A stretch of DNA of 64,000 bases, from IMG/VR virus record IMGVR_UViG_3300044640_001538; one strand, given 5' to 3'. The notes beneath the pieces were generated by a model that saw only the letters and a program-made list of their open reading frames with translations, was not told where the DNA came from and searched no databases. Shown one piece after another: positions 20,012-35,910 of this stretch (the stretch's first letter is position 1; each line of letters starts with the position of its first letter). A program made the position numbers and the translations under genes. The stretch is from a virus. Taxonomy: Duplodnaviria > Heunggongvirae > Uroviricota > Caudoviricetes.

Positions 20012-20201
20012 CTTTAAAAAATTTATTTAGTTCGTTTTTATCTACTTGCCAAAACAAATAGTCATCTTCCTCTACGGGGTCCAAGTTTTCAATAATGCAA
20101 TCCGAAAAATCTGCAAAATACATCTGCCCTAAATATCTACCGATTTCATCTATAATTAAAACCGTATCTGTACCTCTTATTTGTTCTATTCTAACCAACA
20201 T
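20001..20201 (-). CDS. hypothetical protein
   Basis: ORF in track. Confidence 0.35.
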   Translation of the reverse strand: MLVRIEQIRGTDTVLIIDEIGRYLGQMYFADFSDCIIENLDPVEEDDYLFWQVDKNELNKFFKDVK

Positions 20202-20204
20202 TTC

Positions 20205-21803
20205 TTAAACTTTTGGGTATAGGACTACAACGCCTATGTTAAACATTTTTATTGCCGACTCTGAAGCTGATTCTAAAGCAACTCTAATAGATTTTTTACT
20301 GTCAATAATACCATCTGTTAATAGATTTGAAATTTCATCTTTAACTGCATTATACCCAACTCCAAACTTATCTTCCGAGTGTTTTAAATAGTTTATTCCA
20401 AAGTACTTTTTATTTTTTCTGTTGGCGTTTTTCAAGATTTGCAACATTGGCGACTTTAAAACTGTTTTTACTAAGTTATATCCCTTTTGTTCATCTTTAT
20501 TTGCAAACTTTTTGTACATTAAATTAGAAATAAACACTAAAGTACTTCCTCCACCTGGAATATATCCTTCTGAAATAGCAGATTTAACTGAAGCAAGTGC
20601 ATCGTCAACTCTGTCATACTTCTCTCTAATATCATTTGGTGTTAAACCCCCTACTTCAATAAGACAAGATTTGCCAGATAATCTTTTCATTCTAGCCAAG
20701 TCTGAAGGTGTTTTATCTTCTTTATCTCTCAAAATTTCAACTGCATCGAACACTTCTTGAGGGATATTCGCTACCGAAAGTACAGTTTGGTCATCTGAAA
20801 TAACTGCTTTATCGGCAAAACCTGTAACAAAAATAGGATTATTATCTTTATCTCTCTTAACGGTGTCTGGATTGTAAACTTCTGCTCCAGTGAACATAGC
20901 AATATCGTTCAATAAAGATACATTTTCATATTCTGATTGAACAGCAAGTCCAACTAAACAAATATTTACTCCTGCATTCTTTAAAACAATCAATCTGTCT
21001 TTAAATTCTGTAATAGGTCGTTCTGTAAAGATTAATAAAGGCGCTTTATTACCGTTTCTTTGTACAAAGTATTTTAAAAAGTCTAAAACCTCTGTATTTT
21101 CTTGCCAGATAGATAAACATAAAACAGAAACCTTCTCGTCTTCAAATACTGGTTTAGATTCTTTGTTTATAAAAAATGGAGAAGAAAAACCTTGATTAGG
21201 TAACACCATTCCACTTTGCTCAATAACTTTTATATCTTCTGTATTTTCATTTTTTGAAACTTCTATAACGCCGTCTCTACCAACAGAATTAAAAGCTTGA
21301 ACTATCTTACCACCTAACTCTGTATCGTTATTACAAGAAGTGTTAGCAATCATTCTAAGTGAATTTTCATCTGTATCTATAGCAAAATAATCTAAATTAC
21401 TATACACTTCACTAACTGCTGCTTTTATACCTCTTTCTACGGCTTTATTGAAATTTTTTCTCTTGAAATTGTTTAAGAAAGCTTTTTGAAAGACCATTGT
21501 TGTAGTAGTACTATCTCCAGACTTTTTTAAAGTGGATACAGCACCTTGAATAGCTTGTAAAGCACCAAAGTTTTTTGCTGGCTCTGCAAACCTAATTCTT
21601 AAAGCTACAGAAACACCGTCTTTTGTTAAAATTGGTGCATCTTTATCGTTTCCGCTGTCTAATAGCGAATACTTACCTTCAGCACCTAAAGTTTGAGCAA
21701 CTGCCTCACAAGCTTGTAAATAACCTTCATCTAAAAGGTCATAATCTTTAATCAATATATTGACAACCCCCTTTAACGGAGTTCTTTTTAAACTATTTAT
21801 CAT
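20205..21803 (-). CDS. groEL: phage-encoded GroEL-like chaperonin (Cpn60 family)
   Basis: Cpn60 hallmarks: TKDGVSVA, GDSTTTTMV (compare GDGTTTATV), a GGG ATP-binding loop near the C-terminus (PGGGSTLV), and DGIIDSKKSIRVALESA (compare GIIDPTKVTRSAL). Length 532 aa. Confidence 0.85.
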   Translation of the reverse strand: MINSLKRTPLKGVVNILIKDYDLLDEGYLQACEAVAQTLGAEGKYSLLDSGNDKDAPILTKDGVSVALRIRFAEPAKNFGALQAIQGAVSTLKKSGDSTTTTMVFQKAFLNNFKRKNFNKAVERGIKAAVSEVYSNLDYFAIDTDENSLRMIANTSCNNDTELGGKIVQAFNSVGRDGVIEVSKNENTEDIKVIEQSGMVLPNQGFSSPFFINKESKPVFEDEKVSVLCLSIWQENTEVLDFLKYFVQRNGNKAPLLIFTERPITEFKDRLIVLKNAGVNICLVGLAVQSEYENVSLLNDIAMFTGAEVYNPDTVKRDKDNNPIFVTGFADKAVISDDQTVLSVANIPQEVFDAVEILRDKEDKTPSDLARMKRLSGKSCLIEVGGLTPNDIREKYDRVDDALASVKSAISEGYIPGGGSTLVFISNLMYKKFANKDEQKGYNLVKTVLKSPMLQILKNANRKNKKYFGINYLKHSEDKFGVGYNAVKDEISNLLTDGIIDSKKSIRVALESASESAIKMFNIGVVVLYPKV

Positions 21804-22971
21804 AATTCTCTAGTAGCGTTTGTCCACGCTTTAAAATTGTTAATGACGCTAAAAAATCTGCATTACCTTCGTGAGAACATTTAACACATTTAAACGTTTC
21901 TTGATTAGGTCTGTTTTCTTTTGCAACATACCCACAATTATTACATTCTTGTGAACTATATTTAGCATCTATTTTTATTAATTCTGTTTTGTACTCTAAG
22001 TATTGAGCAAATTTACTCCAACTAACATCTGAAATAGCTTTTGAATAGTTTTTATTTTGTACCATTTTTGATACGTCTAAATCCTCTACAAAAACTGTTT
22101 GATAATTATTAGCTAACTCTCTTGAAACTTTATGAAGATAATCTTCTCTAACTCTTTGTATTTTTAAATAGATTTTCTTTACTTTTTCTACTTCTTTGTA
22201 AAAGTTGTTAGAACCTCTTTTCTTCAAAGCTAACTTTCTTTGAGCATCTGCTAATTTTTTAGCATACTTGTTAGTTGTTTTAATATTCTCAAAAAATTGA
22301 CCGTCTGAGGTAACTGCAAAATGTGTTATCCCTACATCAATTCCTACTTGTGCTTGGTTATTGCATTTTTGGATTTCGTGGTCTGTAACTATTTGTAAGT
22401 ACCAACCGTCAACTTTTTTAACTACTCTTGCTAATTTTATGTTTCCATATACTTCTCTACTTTTAAATATTTTTACTTTTCCTAATTTTGGTAAATTAAA
22501 TTTTCCGTCTTTTTCAAATCTTAAATCTGGAGTTATTCTTTTTGTATTACCTTGATTAAATTCTATTGATTCCCAGTCTTTTTTCTTTGCCCATTTGGGC
22601 TTTCCAATTTCAAATAGTTTCTTTTGATTAATTTCTGTTCCATTTTTTAAACATTTGTTGATGTAATCCTGTTTTAGTTTTGAAATTTTACCTTCTTTAA
22701 AATCTTTGAAAAACTTTTTATAGCTTTTATCAAGTCTTTCTATTGTACTTTGTAATGTGTTAGCATTTACATTAAAAATCCAAGTAAATTCTTTTTTAAG
22801 TTCTGGTAATTGTTTGCATAAATCAAACTTACTTAATTTCACACCTTTAGAATAAGCATATTCTTTAGTCTCTTTTGCTAAATTGTAGATATATCTAGTT
22901 ATGTTTAGATGCTCTTCAAACTTTAATTCAAGGGATTTAGTAGTTTTTATTTTAAAGGTATAGGTTATCAT
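21793..22971 (-). CDS. tnpB: TnpB (IS200/IS605-family OrfB; RNA-guided RuvC nuclease), solo with no tnpA
   Basis: RuvC-I GIDVGITHFAVTSDG, RuvC-II FVEDLDVSKM, zinc finger CNNCGYV...CVKCSHEGNAD, RuvC-III NADFLASLTI; OrfB-type N-terminus. Catalytic D/E/D are present. Confidence 0.85.
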   Translation of the reverse strand: MITYTFKIKTTKSLELKFEEHLNITRYIYNLAKETKEYAYSKGVKLSKFDLCKQLPELKKEFTWIFNVNANTLQSTIERLDKSYKKFFKDFKEGKISKLKQDYINKCLKNGTEINQKKLFEIGKPKWAKKKDWESIEFNQGNTKRITPDLRFEKDGKFNLPKLGKVKIFKSREVYGNIKLARVVKKVDGWYLQIVTDHEIQKCNNQAQVGIDVGITHFAVTSDGQFFENIKTTNKYAKKLADAQRKLALKKRGSNNFYKEVEKVKKIYLKIQRVREDYLHKVSRELANNYQTVFVEDLDVSKMVQNKNYSKAISDVSWSKFAQYLEYKTELIKIDAKYSSQECNNCGYVAKENRPNQETFKCVKCSHEGNADFLASLTILKRGQTLLENYDK

Positions 22972-23105
22972 TACTCTTTCAAGTCTTTAAGAATTAATGT
23001 TCTAACCCAAGAAGATAAAGATAAACCACCTGACTTCGCTTTTTGTTTAGCTTTATTTTTAGTTTCTTCATCAATCCTTATTAAGATATCCTTTTCTTTT
23101 ATCAT
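22971..23105 (-). CDS. ribbon-helix-helix (CopG/Arc-like) protein, 44 aa, not in track; translationally coupled to tnpB (TAATG overlap)
   Basis: Hand translation MIKEKDILIRIDEETKNKAKQKAKSGGLSLSSWVRTLILKDLKE: a beta-strand (ILIRID) followed by two helices is the classic RHH pattern. Its stop shares 1 nt with the tnpB ATG. Confidence 0.6.
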   Translation of the reverse strand: MIKEKDILIRIDEETKNKAKQKAKSGGLSLSSWVRTLILKDLKE

Positions 23106-23117
23106 TGTATTTAATTT

Positions 23118-23160
23118 TATATTGCAAATATACTACATTTATTTTAATTATGCAAATTTA
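23118..23160 (-). promoter_or_regulatory. Bacteroidetes-type promoter driving the RHH-tnpB-groEL operon
   Basis: caaatata at 23125..23132 (RC TATATTTG), with RC TTTG 20 nt upstream (tgcaaattta at 23151..23160). Confidence 0.6.
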
Positions 23161-23189
23161 TTACAACTATTGTACCAATAAATTTTTTA

Positions 23190-23387
23190 TTAAAGTTCAG
23201 TAGAGTATTGTTCGAACTCATCGTCTAAATCTAAATTTACGTGTAAATTGTTAGCTATATTCTCTAACTCTGTTTGTTGTTTTATAAAACTCTTCTTATC
23301 TTTTTCCCAAACTCCTGTCATATTACGACAAAAGTCTTGAAGCTCCCCACTCTCAGCGAGAGCTTCATATAACTTTTTAAAACTCAT
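23190..23387 (-). CDS. hypothetical protein
   Basis: ORF in track. Confidence 0.35.
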   Translation of the reverse strand: MSFKKLYEALAESGELQDFCRNMTGVWEKDKKSFIKQQTELENIANNLHVNLDLDDEFEQYSTEL

Positions 23388-25923: not shown

Positions 25924-25994
25924 ATGTTCAACCAAGACTTGAACTTGGAATAACTGCACCAAAAACAGTTGTGTTACCATTACACCATTGAACA
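25924..25994 (-). tRNA. tRNA-Gln (anticodon UUG)
   Basis: Hand-folded cloverleaf: 7-bp acceptor TGTTCAA/TTGAACA, D-stem GTGT/ACAC with loop AATGGTA, anticodon stem ACTGT/GCAGT with loop TTTTGGT (U33, UUG at 34-36, G37), T-arm CCAAG-TTCAAGT-CTTGG, discriminator T; CCA not encoded. Confidence 0.75.
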
Positions 25995-26510: not shown

Positions 26511-26550
26511 CTTCTGCAAATATACGAAATTATTTTTAATTGTGCAAATT
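26511..26550 (-). promoter_or_regulatory. Bacteroidetes-type promoter copy oriented into the ncRNA/tRNA region
   Basis: caaatata at 26517..26524; RC TTTG (tgtgcaaatt) 20 nt upstream. Confidence 0.55.
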
Positions 26551-26554
26551 TATT

Positions 26555-27229: not shown

Positions 27230-28471
27230 TTATTTTGAATATAGTGGTAATAAGTGTCTAAATTTTTTATGGATTACATTATATAATTTCATAGAGCTAC
27301 TCCTTAATTCATTTAAGGTGGTATACTTTTTAATCTCTTCTGTAATTTTTTCTTCTGTCCAAATTATTCTATCTGTTGTTAAATGCTCTGTTAACTCTGG
27401 ATATAATTTTTTTGCAATATTATAAGCAGATGGATTTTTCTCTATAACTTCTTTAACTGTTTTATACTTTAACATTTCTTCTTTTAAAGTATCTTTGTCC
27501 CACTTTACCTTTATATAAGGTAAGTCTTTATTATATTTTCTATACCTTCTGTATAATAAAGGAAAATTTTTGTATATATCCTCTAATGAACACTCATTTA
27601 TTATATCTTGTTCCTCTTTTGTAAATAAAGGTTTCTTTTCTTTTTTAAATAAAGGCTTATCTAAATCTTCCTCATATACCCAACCAATAGTGTTTGAATT
27701 TATTCTAAGTAACTGTGCTCTTATACAACCTATGCTTTTACCTAATAATATAGATAATTCTCTAACTGAATTTATTTTTTCTTTAGAATAATAATTAAAA
27801 ACAGGTTTTAATTGTGTACTAATTCTTTTTTGTATAGTTTCTAAGGATTGTTTTTTACCTCTATTAGGGTTTCTATCACTTAGCATAAAATCTCTTATTT
27901 TATTTTTTTCCTCATCTGATAATGTTCTTCCAAAAGAAGGGTGGTCGCTACCCTTTTTACCTTTCCAATATTTTGCATTATTCAAGCTCATTCGTTTTTT
28001 ACTTTCTTCAGATGCTTTTTTACCTTTTTGAGCGTTACTTACATTAATTTTGTGATTATCTAGTTCTTCTTGTGTCTTACCTTGTCTCCAATCTTTTCCA
28101 AACATTGGGTGTTTCTCTCCCTTAGATGATTCGCTTAATTTTTTTCTAGTTTCTTCTGATATTTTAGCAGGGTGTTCTTTACAAGCAGTAAGTATGCAAT
28201 TCAAACCGTTACTGCCTAATACATCATAAAAATCTTGCCAATAACGTTCTCGACAATATAAATCAGAGACTTCACATTCTTCTATAATTTCAAAAATATG
28301 ATTTTCTACTCCGTATTTTTGAAAAGAGTTATATAACCTTACTTGAGTCTTTACTTTGTCTGATTTTTTATATGAATTTAATCTGCTCTTTATATTTTTA
28401 CTTTTACCTATATAAATTTTATTGGAGGGAGATGTTATTTTATAAATCCCAGATTTTTCTTTATATGCCAT
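27230..28471 (-). CDS. GIY-YIG homing endonuclease (I-TevI-like, with NUMOD-type repeats)
   Basis: N-terminal SGIYKITSPSNKIYIGKSKNIKSRLNSY (GIY-N10-YIG...R); repeated SEE(T/S)(R/K)KK(L/M)S motifs typical of NUMOD3. Confidence 0.8.
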   Translation of the reverse strand: MAYKEKSGIYKITSPSNKIYIGKSKNIKSRLNSYKKSDKVKTQVRLYNSFQKYGVENHIFEIIEECEVSDLYCRERYWQDFYDVLGSNGLNCILTACKEHPAKISEETRKKLSESSKGEKHPMFGKDWRQGKTQEELDNHKINVSNAQKGKKASEESKKRMSLNNAKYWKGKKGSDHPSFGRTLSDEEKNKIRDFMLSDRNPNRGKKQSLETIQKRISTQLKPVFNYYSKEKINSVRELSILLGKSIGCIRAQLLRINSNTIGWVYEEDLDKPLFKKEKKPLFTKEEQDIINECSLEDIYKNFPLLYRRYRKYNKDLPYIKVKWDKDTLKEEMLKYKTVKEVIEKNPSAYNIAKKLYPELTEHLTTDRIIWTEEKITEEIKKYTTLNELRSSSMKLYNVIHKKFRHLLPLYSK

Positions 28472-28883
28472 TAGAACCTTTTGTTAGTTGATGTTGCCAA
28501 ACTTTTAACGATATCCATCTATTTAAACAACTACTATCTTCTAAACCATTGTTACAAATAATTAGTCTAGCTTCTTCTAAACTAAGTTCAGCCTTAGAAA
28601 AACAAAACTTAATAATACTTTTTTTTATTATAGCTCCATTTTTGACTAATTGTTTAACTTCTTTTGACGAAGACTCATAATTTCGCCAGTTAGATTCCTT
28701 TGTTACAGCTTTTTTCCCGCGCCCACGAGTAGAAGTAAGATTCTTTTTTCCATAATAGTAAAAAGGAGTTCCTATTATCTCTATAAGGTATGTGAAGCCT
28801 ATAGCCAGAGGAGGTACAGTAAAATCTTTTTTACCTTGATATGTCCATTCTATTTTTTCTGTTGTTTTTTTAACTGCCATCAA
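28461..28883 (-). CDS. hypothetical protein
   Basis: ORF in track; 11-nt overlap with the GIY-YIG gene. Confidence 0.35.
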   Translation of the reverse strand: MMAVKKTTEKIEWTYQGKKDFTVPPLAIGFTYLIEIIGTPFYYYGKKNLTSTRGRGKKAVTKESNWRNYESSSKEVKQLVKNGAIIKKSIIKFCFSKAELSLEEARLIICNNGLEDSSCLNRWISLKVWQHQLTKGSNGI

Positions 28884-32059: not shown

Positions 32060-32100
32060 TTATTGCAAATATACGAAATTTTTTTGAATTATGCAAGTTT
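32060..32100 (-). promoter_or_regulatory. Bacteroidetes-type promoter copy
   Basis: caaatata at 32066..32073; RC TTG (atgcaag) 20 nt upstream. Confidence 0.55.
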
Positions 32101-35795: not shown

Positions 35796-35875
35796 GCCAC
35801 AAAGATAGAAAAATAAGATGAGTTATACAAATTAATGACAACGATTGTAATAATATGTTAAAAAAATGTTAAAGT

Positions 35876-35910
35876 TCTTGCATATTACAAAAATTATTTG
35901 TATATTTGCA
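35876..35910 (+). promoter_or_regulatory. plus-strand Bacteroidetes-type promoter (TTG-N20-TATATTTG) opening the rightward gene block
   Basis: TTG at 35878..35880 and TATATTTG at 35901..35908; divergent from the minus-strand promoters. Confidence 0.55.

What the first reader, a model, noticed from the sequence alone, without database searches (positions are those of the whole stretch)
20205..23160. RHH - solo TnpB - GroEL operon driven by a phage early promoter
A 44-aa ribbon-helix-helix ORF (22971..23105) shares its stop with the tnpB ATG (TAATG). The 392-aa TnpB keeps all three RuvC catalytic residues (D in GIDVGI, E in FVEDLD, D in NAD) and its zinc finger, but no tnpA is present anywhere in the window. 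Its stop overlaps the start of a GroEL-like chaperonin gene by 11 nt. One of the conserved TTG-N20-TATATTTG promoters sits 13-20 nt upstream of the RHH start. TnpB normally uses an omega/re-RNA encoded across its own 3' end and the adjacent right end of the IS. Here that region is the 5' end of groEL, so any guide would be derived from phage coding sequence. This looks like a domesticated TnpB. It could be a homing nuclease that cuts co-infecting genomes lacking the insertion, which would fit this genome's load of homing endonucleases. It could equally be an RNA-guided regulator or anti-host factor. The RHH partner and the chaperonin linkage are not standard features of IS605 elements.
Basis: partly seen in the sequence, partly recalled or inferred. 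Interest (0 to 1): 0.85.

Follow-up and report, generated by a model that had tools for sequence, protein, structure and literature searches.

The report
Arc-TnpB insertion sequence inside phage groEL
A 1.45-kb selfish insertion sequence, carrying a small repressor-like protein, an RNA-guided nuclease (TnpB) and its guide RNA, sits in the first codons of a phage chaperonin gene; sister phages lack it, so it is an ordinary mobile element of a known kind, not a domesticated phage function.

Summary
On the minus strand, a 44-aa RHH gene, a 392-aa TnpB with an intact RuvC triad and zinc finger, and a GroEL-like gene follow one another with overlapping stops and starts, behind a TTG-N20-TATATTTG promoter.

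The RHH gene, tnpB and the promoter are one 1,448-bp IS200/IS605-family element (window 21760..23207). A contig about 97% identical in the flanks (L108) has the same neighbours but no insert. There the upstream small gene overlaps groEL directly.

The right end is a conserved structured RNA ending in GTTGTCAA, with strong covariation. A model built without the window finds it only at 21760..21840 (49 bits). The 20 nt beyond it equal the empty site, which lies next to a CAA motif, as at the other left junctions read.

RHH-TnpB pairs occur at many different loci in related phages, so the GroEL linkage is incidental. The RHH partner is the already described "Arc" repressor of IS605 elements.

This copy lacks the conserved left-end block, and no tnpA is present. 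It probably spreads only by RNA-guided homing into empty alleles during co-infection (inferred). Verdict: a new member of a known kind, of moderate to low interest.

The parts
21760..23207 (-). Whole inserted element, 1,448 bp: left end, promoter, RHH/Arc gene, tnpB, omega-RNA and right end. The shared pentanucleotide CAATA at both junctions leaves the boundaries ambiguous by up to 5 nt.
   Evidence: It is absent from the syntenic contig L108. The flanks align at 96.9% (L108 1572-2339 with window 23973-23206) and 97.8% (L108 2335-3896 with window 21762-20201). The right boundary is set by the family-wide GTTGTCAA end.
23208..23212 (-). Left flank AACAA, the target- or transposon-adjacent motif (TAM-like, consensus NCAA) next to the left end.
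   Evidence: The left junctions read in 8 loci all end in CAA: TTCAA, ACCAA, ATCAA, ACCAA, AACAA, GTCAA, ATCAA, and AACAA in the window.
23106..23207 (-). Left end (LE). Its first about 28 nt (TACTCTACTGAACTTTAATAAAAAATTT) are unrelated to the family's conserved terminal block GAAMACCC..GGGATGAATTG. The rest (ATTGGTACAATAGTTGTAATAAATTTGCATAATTAAAATAAATGTAGTA...) is homologous to other elements. It also supplies the last codons (STEL, stop) of the upstream 65-aa gene.
   Evidence: Comparison of upstream regions. It is nearly identical to the LE of the element in L115 from ATTGGTACAAT onward. The upstream protein ends ..EQYSTEL only in filled alleles.
23125..23155 (-). Element-borne promoter of the TTG-N20-TAnnTTTG type, ending 19 nt upstream of the RHH ATG. 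It is the presumed Arc operator region.
   Evidence: Pattern match. The core ATGTAGTATATTTGCAATATAAAAT is conserved in L006, L009 and L113, with variants in L007 and L114. It is 87.5-89% identical over 36-40 nt to phage promoters at 26515-26554 and 32061-32096.
22971..23105 (-). arc-like ribbon-helix-helix gene, 44 aa.
   Evidence: Weak Pfam RHH hits: NikA-like 1.1e-5, RelB, HicB, CopG. PHROG Arc-like repressor. AlphaFold2 model with pLDDT 90.9, whose best PDB matches are Arc repressor, NikA, VapB, ParG, CopG and PutA RHH domains. Found directly upstream of tnpB in at least 13 relatives at different loci. 394 homologous clusters.
21793..22971 (-). tnpB, a 392-aa RNA-guided RuvC nuclease.
   Evidence: Pfam and PHROG matches. 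Invariant D212/E296/D372 and a C4 zinc finger. Homologous to ISDra2 TnpB structures 8bf8, 8exa and 8h1j, E = 6e-32.
21760..21840 (-). The 3' part of the omega-RNA scaffold and the right end (RE). It has two helices plus a variable middle hairpin and ends in GGGGGTTGTCAA. The scaffold probably extends further 5' into tnpB.
   Evidence: Covariation on 21 loci: 90.9% of cells paired against 30-51% when partners are slid, and 65 double-change cells against 16.5 in shuffles, 0/500. A covariance model built without the window gives one hit here, 49 bits, E = 6e-8; the next best is 12.9 bits.
21740..21759 (-). Predicted guide segment TATATTGATTAAAGATTATG, the flank immediately 3' of the RE. It is groEL codons for (N)ILIKDY.
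   Evidence: Identical to the empty site in L108, where AACAA precedes it. Unique in the window at up to 3 mismatches. The guide length is assumed from characterised TnpBs (my knowledge).
20205..21803 (-). GroEL-like chaperonin gene. Only 20205..21761 is native. The first 14 codons (MINSLKRTPLKGVV, 21803..21762) are read from the RE and replace the native MSSN. An in-frame TTG at 21755..21753 is an alternative start.
   Evidence: Pfam and PHROG matches. Empty-allele proteins P0121 (MSSNNILIKDY..) and P0232 (MSSTNNNILIKDY..) compared with the window's MINSLKRTPLKGVVNILIKDY...
23190..23387 (-). Upstream 65-aa phage gene. In empty alleles its 3' end overlaps the groEL start; here it is rebuilt by the LE.
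   Evidence: L108 2158-2349 compared with the window. Cluster members end ..EQYID..DEQQYID or ..DEQEYID when empty and ..EQYSTEL when filled.

Best explanation
Window 21760..23207 (minus strand) is a non-autonomous IS200/IS605-family insertion sequence. Its order is left end with its own promoter, arc-like RHH gene, tnpB, then omega-RNA and right end.

**Where it sits.** It lies immediately 3' of an AACAA motif, inside the 26-nt overlap between a small phage gene and groEL, and in the same orientation as phage transcription. Both interrupted genes stay open. The left end supplies a new C-terminus and stop for the upstream gene. The right end supplies an in-frame ATG and 14 codons for GroEL.

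**How it most likely works.**
1. Shown by sequence: the element promoter drives arc and tnpB. No terminator-like site separates them from groEL.
2. Inferred from the published Arc work: the RHH dimer binds this promoter and holds expression down.
3. Structure shown by covariation, expression inferred: the transcript across the tnpB 3' end and RE folds into the omega-RNA. Its 3' tail is the first roughly 16-20 nt of flanking groEL.
4. Inferred: TnpB with this RNA cuts any co-infecting relative that carries the uninterrupted site (AACAA + TATATTGATTAAAGATTATG). Recombinational repair from the filled genome then copies the element in. This is RNA-guided homing, analogous to phage homing endonucleases.
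5. Inferred: this copy lacks the conserved left-end block, has a shortened right-end hairpin, and has no tnpA available in the window. It is probably no longer transposable by a TnpA and persists by homing and vertical descent.

The GroEL neighbourhood is simply where this copy landed.
For: **Filled and empty alleles.** L108 and a second contig have the small gene followed directly by groEL, with no insert. The flanks are 96.9% and 97.8% identical and the junction is precise. The filled forms occur on 6-10 contigs: GroEL on 6, the upstream gene on 9, and tnpB and the RHH gene on 10. Empty forms of the upstream gene occur on 6 contigs.

**Mobility of the module.** The RHH gene directly precedes tnpB in different neighbourhoods. 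A phage with 98% identical GroEL has the groEL site empty but carries a different RHH-TnpB (49% identity) elsewhere.

**Ends.** All relatives share AAGAAT-stem-loop-stem-GAGTTGTCAA and then diverge completely. The left junctions all follow CAA.

**Structured RNA.** Covariation is strong. A covariance model built without the window hits only 21760-21840, at 49 bits.

**Nuclease intact.** The catalytic triad and zinc finger are conserved.

**Guide.** It equals the empty site and is unique in the window.

**RHH.** It has the Arc fold. Arc proteins of IS605 elements bind and repress the element promoter, including in elements with only arc and tnpB (10.64898/2026.09.24.754181).

**Source of the family.** A relative with a Y1 TnpA in place of the RHH gene has the same right end (L030).

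**Concept.** TnpB homing into vacant sites is established for IS605 elements (PMC10055086). Homing into co-infecting phages is listed as a category in PMC13565253.
Against: - There is no expression or cleavage data of any kind. The guide length, the TAM and activity itself are all inferred.
- The right end finishes in GTCAA, which resembles the NCAA left-flank motif. How the filled allele escapes self-cleavage is not explained. The only visible difference is position -5: A or T in 7 of 8 flanks, against G in the RE.
- The conserved left-end block is missing here, so the original insertion mechanism cannot be reconstructed. The 5-nt CAATA identity at both junctions would also fit a microhomology-mediated event.
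- Predicted ssDNA and RNA folding energies of the ends are no better than shuffles. Support for structure rests on covariation alone.
- No RHH operator could be defined. There is only a weak TACAA/TTGTA repeat pattern.
- The empty alleles could be products of precise loss rather than the ancestral state. That would not change what the element is.
Confidence: 0.8

Rival explanations
1. Domesticated TnpB. The nuclease has been recruited by the phage as an RNA-guided regulator of groEL, or as an anti-host or anti-competitor factor, and is no longer a selfish element.
For: There is no tnpA in the window. The left-end block is lost and the RE hairpin shortened in this copy. The element is translationally fused into an operon with groEL. 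The clade with at least 45% identity was not found in 185,579 species genomes, where the best match was 38% identity over a partial match and about 33% over full length, so it appears phage-restricted.
Against: - The insert is polymorphic between near-identical phages.
- Relatives sit at unrelated loci.
- The catalytic residues are intact, unlike nuclease-dead TldR-type regulators.
- The guide equals the element's own flank, exactly as in selfish IS605 elements.
- The guide matches nothing else in the window.
Confidence: 0.08
2. Toxin-antitoxin-like pair. The RHH protein is an antitoxin that binds and inhibits a TnpB toxin, as proposed for archaeal RHH/MazE-TnpB pairs.
For: JGI names the RHH "antitoxin component of RelBE/YafQ-DinJ". 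It has weak Pfam hits to RelB, HicB, FitA and CopG antitoxins. The TA hypothesis is stated in PMC10691335. The two genes are tightly coupled (TAATG).
Against: - The archaeal clade has a rearranged RuvC-III (D to H). Here D372 is canonical and invariant.
- The protein is only 44 aa, which is the bare RHH DNA-binding fold with no C-terminal toxin-binding tail.
- Some clade members lack the RHH gene altogether and keep tnpB (L109, L110, L011).
- Experimental work on IS605 Arc shows promoter repression (10.64898/2026.09.24.754181).
Confidence: 0.05
3. Fully active transposon. The element is still mobilised by a Y1 TnpA supplied in trans, from the host or another element, and TnpB serves only the classical role of restoring the donor site after excision.
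For: The left flanks obey a CAA rule typical of TnpA target choice. A relative with a Y1 TnpA and the same RE exists (L030). Many relatives keep the conserved LE block.
Against: - This copy lacks that LE block, and its RE hairpin has lost the CTTTAG loop shared by LE and RE in the relatives.
- No tnpA occurs in the window, and only 1 of about 20 loci examined has one.
- A lytic phage genome offers little time for excision and restoration cycles (inference).
Confidence: 0.07

Closest known systems
Arc-containing IS605-family elements (Zedaveinyte et al. 2023, 10.1101/2023.11.20.567912; Moon et al. 2026, 10.64898/2026.09.24.754181)
   Same: A small RHH ("Arc") gene lies inside the IS boundaries next to tnpB. 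The element carries its own promoter. Versions with only arc and tnpB exist. TnpB has a canonical catalytic triad.
   Different: - The published examples are bacterial (Clostridium, Petroclostridium), often with divergent arc-tnpA and tnpB genes and a bidirectional promoter. Here promoter, arc and tnpB are collinear.
- The promoter here is of the TTG/TAnnTTTG type.
- This clade was seen only on phage-like contigs.
- I did not test sequence relatedness to the characterised Arc proteins.
ISDra2 TnpB and its omega/reRNA (Karvelis et al. 2021, PMC8612924; structures 8exa, 8h1j)
   Same: Homologous protein (E = 6e-32) with an aligned D/E/D triad and zinc finger. The guide RNA is encoded across the tnpB 3' end and RE, with the guide taken from the flank. 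A TAM lies next to the LE.
   Different: - About 30% identity or less.
- The TAM here is NCAA-like rather than TTGAT (the ISDra2 TAM is from my knowledge).
- ISDra2 carries tnpA; this element does not.
IS1341-type (tnpB-only) members of the IS200/IS605 family (ISfinder grouping; my knowledge)
   Same: No tnpA. tnpB and the ends alone make a non-autonomous element found in many copies or loci.
   Different: This element carries an additional RHH gene and its own strong-consensus promoter. This copy also lacks the conserved LE block.
Free-standing homing endonucleases of phages (T4 SegF and similar; reviewed in PMC13565253)
   Same: Predicted behaviour: cut the allele of a co-infecting relative that lacks the gene, then get copied in by recombinational repair. 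The window also carries GIY-YIG endonuclease genes nearby.
   Different: Recognition is by an RNA guide plus a TAM, not by protein. Self and non-self are told apart by the presence or absence of the insert itself. The enzyme family is unrelated.
Archaeal RHH/MazE-TnpB pairs (Altae-Tran et al. 2023, PMC10691335)
   Same: A small RHH gene lies immediately upstream of tnpB.
   Different: Those TnpBs have a rearranged RuvC-III motif, are archaeal, and were proposed to be toxin-antitoxin modules. Here the triad is canonical and the element has IS ends.

Membership tests
IS200/IS605 family insertion sequence | Encodes a TnpB (OrfB) with a RuvC D-E-D triad and a zinc finger | tested here: met
   Pfam OrfB_IS605 and Cas12f1-like_TNB. 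D212/E296/D372 and four Cys are invariant. They align with the ISDra2 motifs.
IS200/IS605 family insertion sequence | Y1 (HUH) TnpA transposase in the element. It is required for autonomous members and absent from IS1341-type members. | tested here: not met
   No match in the window (best E = 0.035). The relative L030 has one directly upstream of tnpB. The element is therefore non-autonomous.
IS200/IS605 family insertion sequence | Insertion without a target-site duplication, immediately 3' of a short conserved motif | tested here: met
   The filled/empty comparison shows a precise 1,448-bp insert. CAA precedes the LE in 8 loci. Caveat: a 5-nt CAATA identity at both junctions, 3 nt of which come from the similarity between the TAM and the RE end.
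IS200/IS605 family insertion sequence | Related subterminal imperfect palindromes at both the left and right ends | tested here: inconclusive
   The RE stem-loop is present and covaries. Relatives have a conserved LE block GAAMACCC..GGGATGAATTG with a similar CTTTAG loop. The block is absent from the window's LE. Folding energies are not above shuffles.
IS200/IS605 family insertion sequence | Omega/reRNA spanning the tnpB 3' end and RE, with the guide taken from the adjacent flank | tested here: met
   Conserved structure with covariation. Covariance-model hit of 49 bits at 21760-21840, from a model built without the window. Expression of the RNA cannot be tested here.
Arc-like RHH accessory protein of IS605 elements | Ribbon-helix-helix fold, about 45-50 aa | tested here: met
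   AlphaFold2 model with pLDDT 90.9. Top PDB matches are Arc, NikA, VapB, ParG, CopG and PutA RHH domains, TM 0.6-0.79. Pfam and PHROG RHH hits are below the curated cut-offs.
Arc-like RHH accessory protein of IS605 elements | Encoded within the IS boundaries next to tnpB | tested here: met
   It lies inside the 1,448-bp insert. It is conserved upstream of tnpB in at least 13 relatives.
Arc-like RHH accessory protein of IS605 elements | Binds the element's promoter and represses it | not testable with these tools
   A conserved promoter lies 19 nt upstream of the gene. No operator could be defined. EMSA, ChIP or a reporter assay is needed.
Arc-like RHH accessory protein of IS605 elements | Sequence homology to the characterised Arc proteins (seed WP_003367503.1) | not tested
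TldR-type domesticated TnpB (nuclease-dead RNA-guided repressor) | Loss of the RuvC catalytic residues | tested here: not met
   The triad is invariant across the clade.
TldR-type domesticated TnpB (nuclease-dead RNA-guided repressor) | Stable association with one partner or target gene and no transposon ends | tested here: not met
   Neighbours differ from locus to locus. The ends and an empty site were identified.
IStron (group I intron fused to an IS605/IS607 element) | Group I intron at the element's 5' end, allowing splicing out of the host gene | tested here: not met
   No Rfam match at the gathering threshold in the window, nor at E <= 5 in 21600-23350. The LE is only 102 nt.
Archaeal RHH/MazE-TnpB putative toxin-antitoxin | Rearranged RuvC-III motif (Asp to His) | tested here: not met
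   D372 in the NAD motif is invariant.

The most novel reading that the evidence does not exclude
This is one copy of a phage-restricted lineage of Arc-TnpB elements that has given up TnpA-mediated transposition altogether. Under this reading the left-end block and the right-end loop have decayed and no tnpA remains. The lineage then lives purely as an RNA-guided homing gene drive, and possibly as a weapon against co-infecting relatives, among large phages that use TTG/TAnnTTTG promoters. Its right end doubles as a portable translation start, which lets it sit inside the 5' end of a conserved gene without inactivating it.
Probability: 0.3. Interest if true: 0.6.

Novelty: new member of a known kind. 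Interest (0 to 1): 0.36.

Why it matters
This is a clean natural example of a TnpB element caught as filled and empty alleles in near-identical phage genomes. The predicted guide exactly matches the empty allele. That is the configuration needed for RNA-guided homing between co-infecting viruses, an idea discussed in reviews, though I found no experimental demonstration for phages in the literature I searched.

It also shows how such an element can sit inside two overlapping genes without killing either, because each end rebuilds one reading frame.

For annotation it carries a warning. The RHH-TnpB-GroEL "operon", the "antitoxin" label on the RHH, and the extended GroEL N-terminus are all consequences of an IS insertion.

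It does not reveal a new kind of system. The Arc partner, the omega-RNA and the homing logic are all published.

Tried and rejected
- **Near-identity DNA search in INPHARED phages:** no match. Protein-level hits reach only about 31-34% identity.
- **GroEL as a probe in IMG/VR:** only 27% relatives. The empty site came from the protein database instead.
- **RE pattern scan of IMG/VR** (AAGAATC-N12-34-GAGTTGTCAA): more than 120 hits, mostly chance. Only 9 of 80 have a stem and only 5 have a tnpB upstream. It added nothing beyond two RE copies on a 270-kb contig.
- **Scan of 185,579 species genomes with the TnpB profile:** nothing above 38% identity, and that only over a partial match. No host or chromosomal source was identified.
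- **Rfam:** no omega-RNA, group I intron or other family at the locus. The IStron idea is rejected.
- **Thermodynamics:** the 170-nt RNA fold has z = -1.33, and ssDNA folds of the LE and RE hairpins are no better than shuffles. I did not use energies as evidence.
- **Sigma-70 promoter and terminator scan:** not enriched, and no terminators between the genes.
- **RHH operator:** I found only a short TACAA/TTGTA pattern flanking the promoter and an ATATT-TGC-AATAT near-palindrome that is not conserved in L007. Neither is claimed.
- **Could the odd first 28 nt of the LE be ancestral phage flank?** Rejected. Every empty allele ends ..YID, overlapping groEL; only filled alleles end ..YSTEL.
- **DNA for the closest relatives** (P0002 at 89%, P0003 at 82%) could not be fetched. 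Whether they share the truncated LE or the groEL site is unknown.

Full report
**1. The observation**

- A 44-aa ORF at 22971..23105 ends in TAATG, and that ATG starts a 392-aa ORF at 21793..22971. The TAG of the second ORF lies 8 nt after the ATG of a 532-aa ORF at 20205..21803, so 11 nt are shared.
- Pfam assigns the 392-aa protein to OrfB_IS605, Cas12f1-like_TNB and HTH_OrfB_IS605. It assigns the 532-aa protein to Cpn60_TCP1. The 44-aa protein gets weak hits to several ribbon-helix-helix families. PHROGs agrees: transposase, chaperonin groEL, Arc-like repressor.
- In an alignment of 28 homologues at 50-89% identity, D212, E296, D372 and the four zinc-finger cysteines are invariant. The three acidic residues align with the corresponding motifs of the solved ISDra2 TnpB.
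- The motif TTGCATAATTAAAATAAATGTAGTATATTTG lies at 23155..23125 and ends 19 nt before the RHH start.
- tblastn with a related Y1 TnpA finds nothing in the window. There is no second tnpB or RHH gene.

**2. The RHH gene, tnpB and the promoter are one insertion**

A search with the GroEL protein found P0121. It is 99% identical but has the N-terminus MSSNNILIKDY, where the window has MINSLKRTPLKGVVNILIKDY.

Its contig, L108, has the same neighbours as the window: the 143-, 70- and 63-aa genes upstream and the 66-, 216- and 104-aa genes downstream. It has no RHH gene and no tnpB.

In L108 the small upstream gene overlaps groEL..gacgATGagttcgaacaa|tatattgattaaagattatg... In the window the same sequence is split. 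The left junction reads ..gagttcgaacaa|tactctactgaac.. and the right junction reads ..gggggttgtcaa|tatattgattaaag...

blastn puts the flanks at 96.9% identity over 768 bp and 97.8% over 1,562 bp, with 5 nt (CAATA) shared by both junctions. Taking the family-wide right-end terminus as the boundary, the insert is window 21760..23207, 1,448 bp.

Protein clusters tell the same story. The upstream gene ends ..EQYSTEL on 9 contigs (filled). It ends ..EQYID..DEQQYID or ..DEQEYID on 6 contigs (empty). GroEL with the extended N-terminus is on 6 contigs.

**3. It is a mobile module, and GroEL is incidental**

The exact TnpB occurs on 10 contigs of up to 121 kb. Several hundred related clusters exist. 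In every relative whose context I could read, the neighbours differ:
- DnaB (P0003)
- a metallophosphatase and an HNH endonuclease (L006)
- Thy1 (L113)
- a DEAD helicase and RecA (L114)
- a thioredoxin-like gene (L109)
- structural-looking genes (L110)

A 43-44-aa RHH gene directly precedes tnpB in at least 13 of these loci. It is missing in L010, L011, L109 and L110. In L030 an IS200-type Y1 transposase takes its place.

A 108-kb contig whose GroEL is 98% identical to the window's has the groEL site empty (MSSTNNNILIKDY). It carries a different RHH-TnpB, 49% identical, somewhere else.

All these contexts are phage-like, with GIY-YIG endonucleases, PhoH, RecA, ribonucleotide reductase and GroEL. 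A profile scan of 185,579 species genomes found nothing closer than 38% identity, and that over a partial match. As far as that scan can see, the clade is confined to phages.

**4. The ends**

*Right end.* Downstream of every tnpB the sequences share AAGAAT-stem-loop-stem-GAGTTGTCAA and then become unrelated.

*Left end.* L006, L007, L009, L029, L031 and L114 share a block GAAMACCC..(imperfect palindrome with a CTTTAG-like loop)..GGGATGAATTG. After it come TTACAA, a -33 TTTG and the core ATGTAGTATATTTGCAATATAAAAT before the RHH ATG.

*Left flank.* The base triplet before the left end is CAA in all 8 loci: TTCAA, ACCAA, ATCAA, ACCAA, AACAA, GTCAA, ATCAA, and AACAA in the window. This is the behaviour of IS200/IS605 elements, which insert 3' of a short motif without a target duplication.

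*This copy is atypical.*
- Its first about 28 nt (TACTCTACTGAACTTTAATAAAAAATTT) replace the conserved terminal block. From ATTGGTACAAT onward it is almost identical to the left end of the L115 element.
- Its right-end hairpin is shortened to CTCC-GTTAAA-GGGG and has lost the CTTTAG loop.
- The relatives with short right-end hairpins whose upstream region I could read (L010, L011, L109, L110) also lack the left-end block. I read this as decay of the TnpA recognition structures. That is an inference, because folding energies of these short AT-rich hairpins do not differ from shuffles.

**5. The omega-RNA**

On 21 loci I tested a three-helix structure for the last roughly 100 nt. Of all cells, 90.9% are paired, against 30-51% when the partners are slid by 1-3 columns. 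Sixty-five cells carry changes on both sides, against 16.5 in shuffles (0 of 500 reach the observed value). Fourteen of 22 pairs show compensatory change (RNAalifold independently found two of the helices).

One helix lies in the codons for K-R-G-Q-S/T-L, and the protein sequence changes so as to keep the pairing.

A covariance model built from 20 loci without the window gives a single significant hit in the 64-kb window, at 21760..21840 on the minus strand, with 49 bits and E = 6e-8. The next best hit scores 12.9 bits. Rfam has no matching family.

The 20 nt after the right end, TATATTGATTAAAGATTATG, are unique in the window. They are identical to the empty site of L108, where AACAA precedes them.

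But this is the normal arrangement of a TnpB element: the guide is whatever lies beside the right end, and so it matches the uninterrupted site.

**6. The RHH protein**

A profile of ten RHH sequences from these loci finds 394 clusters of roughly 44-aa proteins, many on contigs of 60-160 kb.

An AlphaFold2 model has pLDDT 90.9. Its best PDB matches are Arc repressor, NikA, VapB, ParG, CopG and the PutA RHH domain, at TM 0.6-0.79. The E-values are not significant for so short a protein.

- An Arc-like RHH ORF associated with TnpB was reported in 2023 (10.1101/2023.11.20.567912).
- A 2026 preprint shows that Arc proteins of IS605 elements bind and repress the element's own promoter, including in elements that encode only arc and tnpB (10.64898/2026.09.24.754181).
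- A separate archaeal RHH/MazE-TnpB group was proposed to be toxin-antitoxin-like, but it has a rearranged RuvC-III motif (PMC10691335). That is not the case here.

By analogy I assign the 44-aa protein the role of autorepressor of the promoter at 23125..23155. I could not define an operator.

**7. The promoter**

The window holds 29 matches to TTG-N19-21-TAnnTTTG. About a dozen, on the minus strand between 1.3 and 35.5 kb, share an extended form TTGCAnAAnT..TTTCGTATATTTGCA.

The element's promoter resembles them. It is 87.5-89% identical over 36-40 nt to the sites at 26515-26554 and 32061-32096. However, its distinctive core, ATGTAGTATATTTGCAATATAAAAT, is conserved in elements sitting in other phages, and it lies inside the insert.

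It is the element's own promoter, of the type this phage and presumably its host use. TTG/TAnnTTTG is the Bacteroidota consensus as I know it, and the GroEL relatives are in Flavobacterium and Cellulophaga phages.

**8. Consequences for the phage genes**

The insertion lies inside the 26-nt overlap of two genes, and both remain open.
- The left end provides S-T-E-L-stop for the upstream gene.
- The right end provides ATG plus 14 codons in frame with groEL. Its terminal CAA replaces the CAA of the target motif, so the AAT codon across the junction is kept.
- An in-frame TTG at 21755 is an alternative start.
- No terminator-like site separates the genes. groEL is therefore probably read from transcripts that also carry the omega-RNA. 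Whether TnpB binding or processing affects GroEL synthesis is unknown.

**9. Mechanism and verdict**

The best-supported reading is a non-autonomous Arc-TnpB element of the IS200/IS605 family. Its nuclease, guided by an RNA ending in groEL sequence, would cut co-infecting relatives that lack the insert and would then be copied in by repair.
- Shown: the anatomy, the filled/empty polymorphism and the RNA structure.
- Inferred: expression, cleavage, the exact TAM, self-avoidance (the right end finishes in GTCAA, close to the NCAA motif) and homing.

TnpB-driven homing into vacant sites is established for bacterial IS605 elements (PMC10055086). Homing into co-infecting phages is listed as a category in a 2026 review (PMC13565253).

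The "domesticated TnpB" reading is not supported. What survives of it is that this particular copy seems to have lost the structures and the enzyme needed for transposition.

It is a new member of a known kind. Its value is as a tidy natural example and as a caution for annotation.

Noticed in passing
window 20201..20212 (compared with L108 3897..4230): L108 has an extra 92-aa gene between groEL and the 66-aa gene. The window lacks it. This is a second presence/absence polymorphism within 1.6 kb of the IS site.
   Followed up: no
window minus strand at 1326, 3738, 9657, 11679, 25024, 26547, 32096, 34107, 35503; plus strand at 35878: A family of extended promoters, TTGCAnAAnT..(A/T-rich)..TTTCGTATATTTGCA, lies upstream of minus-strand genes. 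A divergent pair at 35830(-) and 35878(+) sits where gene orientation switches.
   Followed up: partly
window 27230..28471 and 28461..28880 (minus strand): Two GIY-YIG homing-endonuclease-like genes (GIY-YIG + NUMOD3, 413 aa; SegE-like, 139 aa) lie next to PhoH. The phage therefore carries protein-guided homing genes as well as the RNA-guided one (gene table of L002).
   Followed up: no
window 25924..25994 (minus strand): A tRNA gene (Rfam RF00005, 59.8 bits). It is the only Rfam gathering-level hit in the window.
   Followed up: no
L027 2966..3041: Immediately after the right end of a related element, the flank AAAAAATAATTAAAATGTCTAAATGTAAAGATTGTCA is duplicated in tandem, and each copy ends in a TTGTCA like the RE terminus. 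This could be a repair footprint or a duplicated target.
   Followed up: no
L115 4720..4862 compared with window 23125..23178: The -33 part of the left end (TTGGTACAATAsTTGTAATAAATTTGsATAATTAAAATAAATGTA) is almost identical in two elements whose TnpBs are only 49% identical. They sit in sister phages, which suggests exchange of end sequences between elements.
   Followed up: partly
TnpB residues about 96-124 (window about 22600..22686): A roughly 25-aa insertion (ISKLKQDYINKCLKNGTEINQKKLFEIG) is present in some clade members (window, P0002, P0012, P0019, P0118, and variants in P0006, P0010, P0086) and absent in others, regardless of overall identity. The domain distribution is mosaic.
   Followed up: no
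L234 and L237 (IMGVR_UViG_3300023283_000076, 270 kb): Two copies of a related right end (AAGAATCCCCTTGCTTTAGCGAGGGGAGTTGTCAA), with about 70 nt of near-identical upstream sequence and different flanks, lie on one very large viral contig. One has a tnpB of 40% identity.
   Followed up: no
L109 5001 and L110 5001: In two relatives, tnpB starts within 1-4 nt of the stop of an unrelated upstream phage gene (TAATG, TAAAATG), with no RHH gene and no recognisable left end. These look like extreme left-end truncations.
   Followed up: partly
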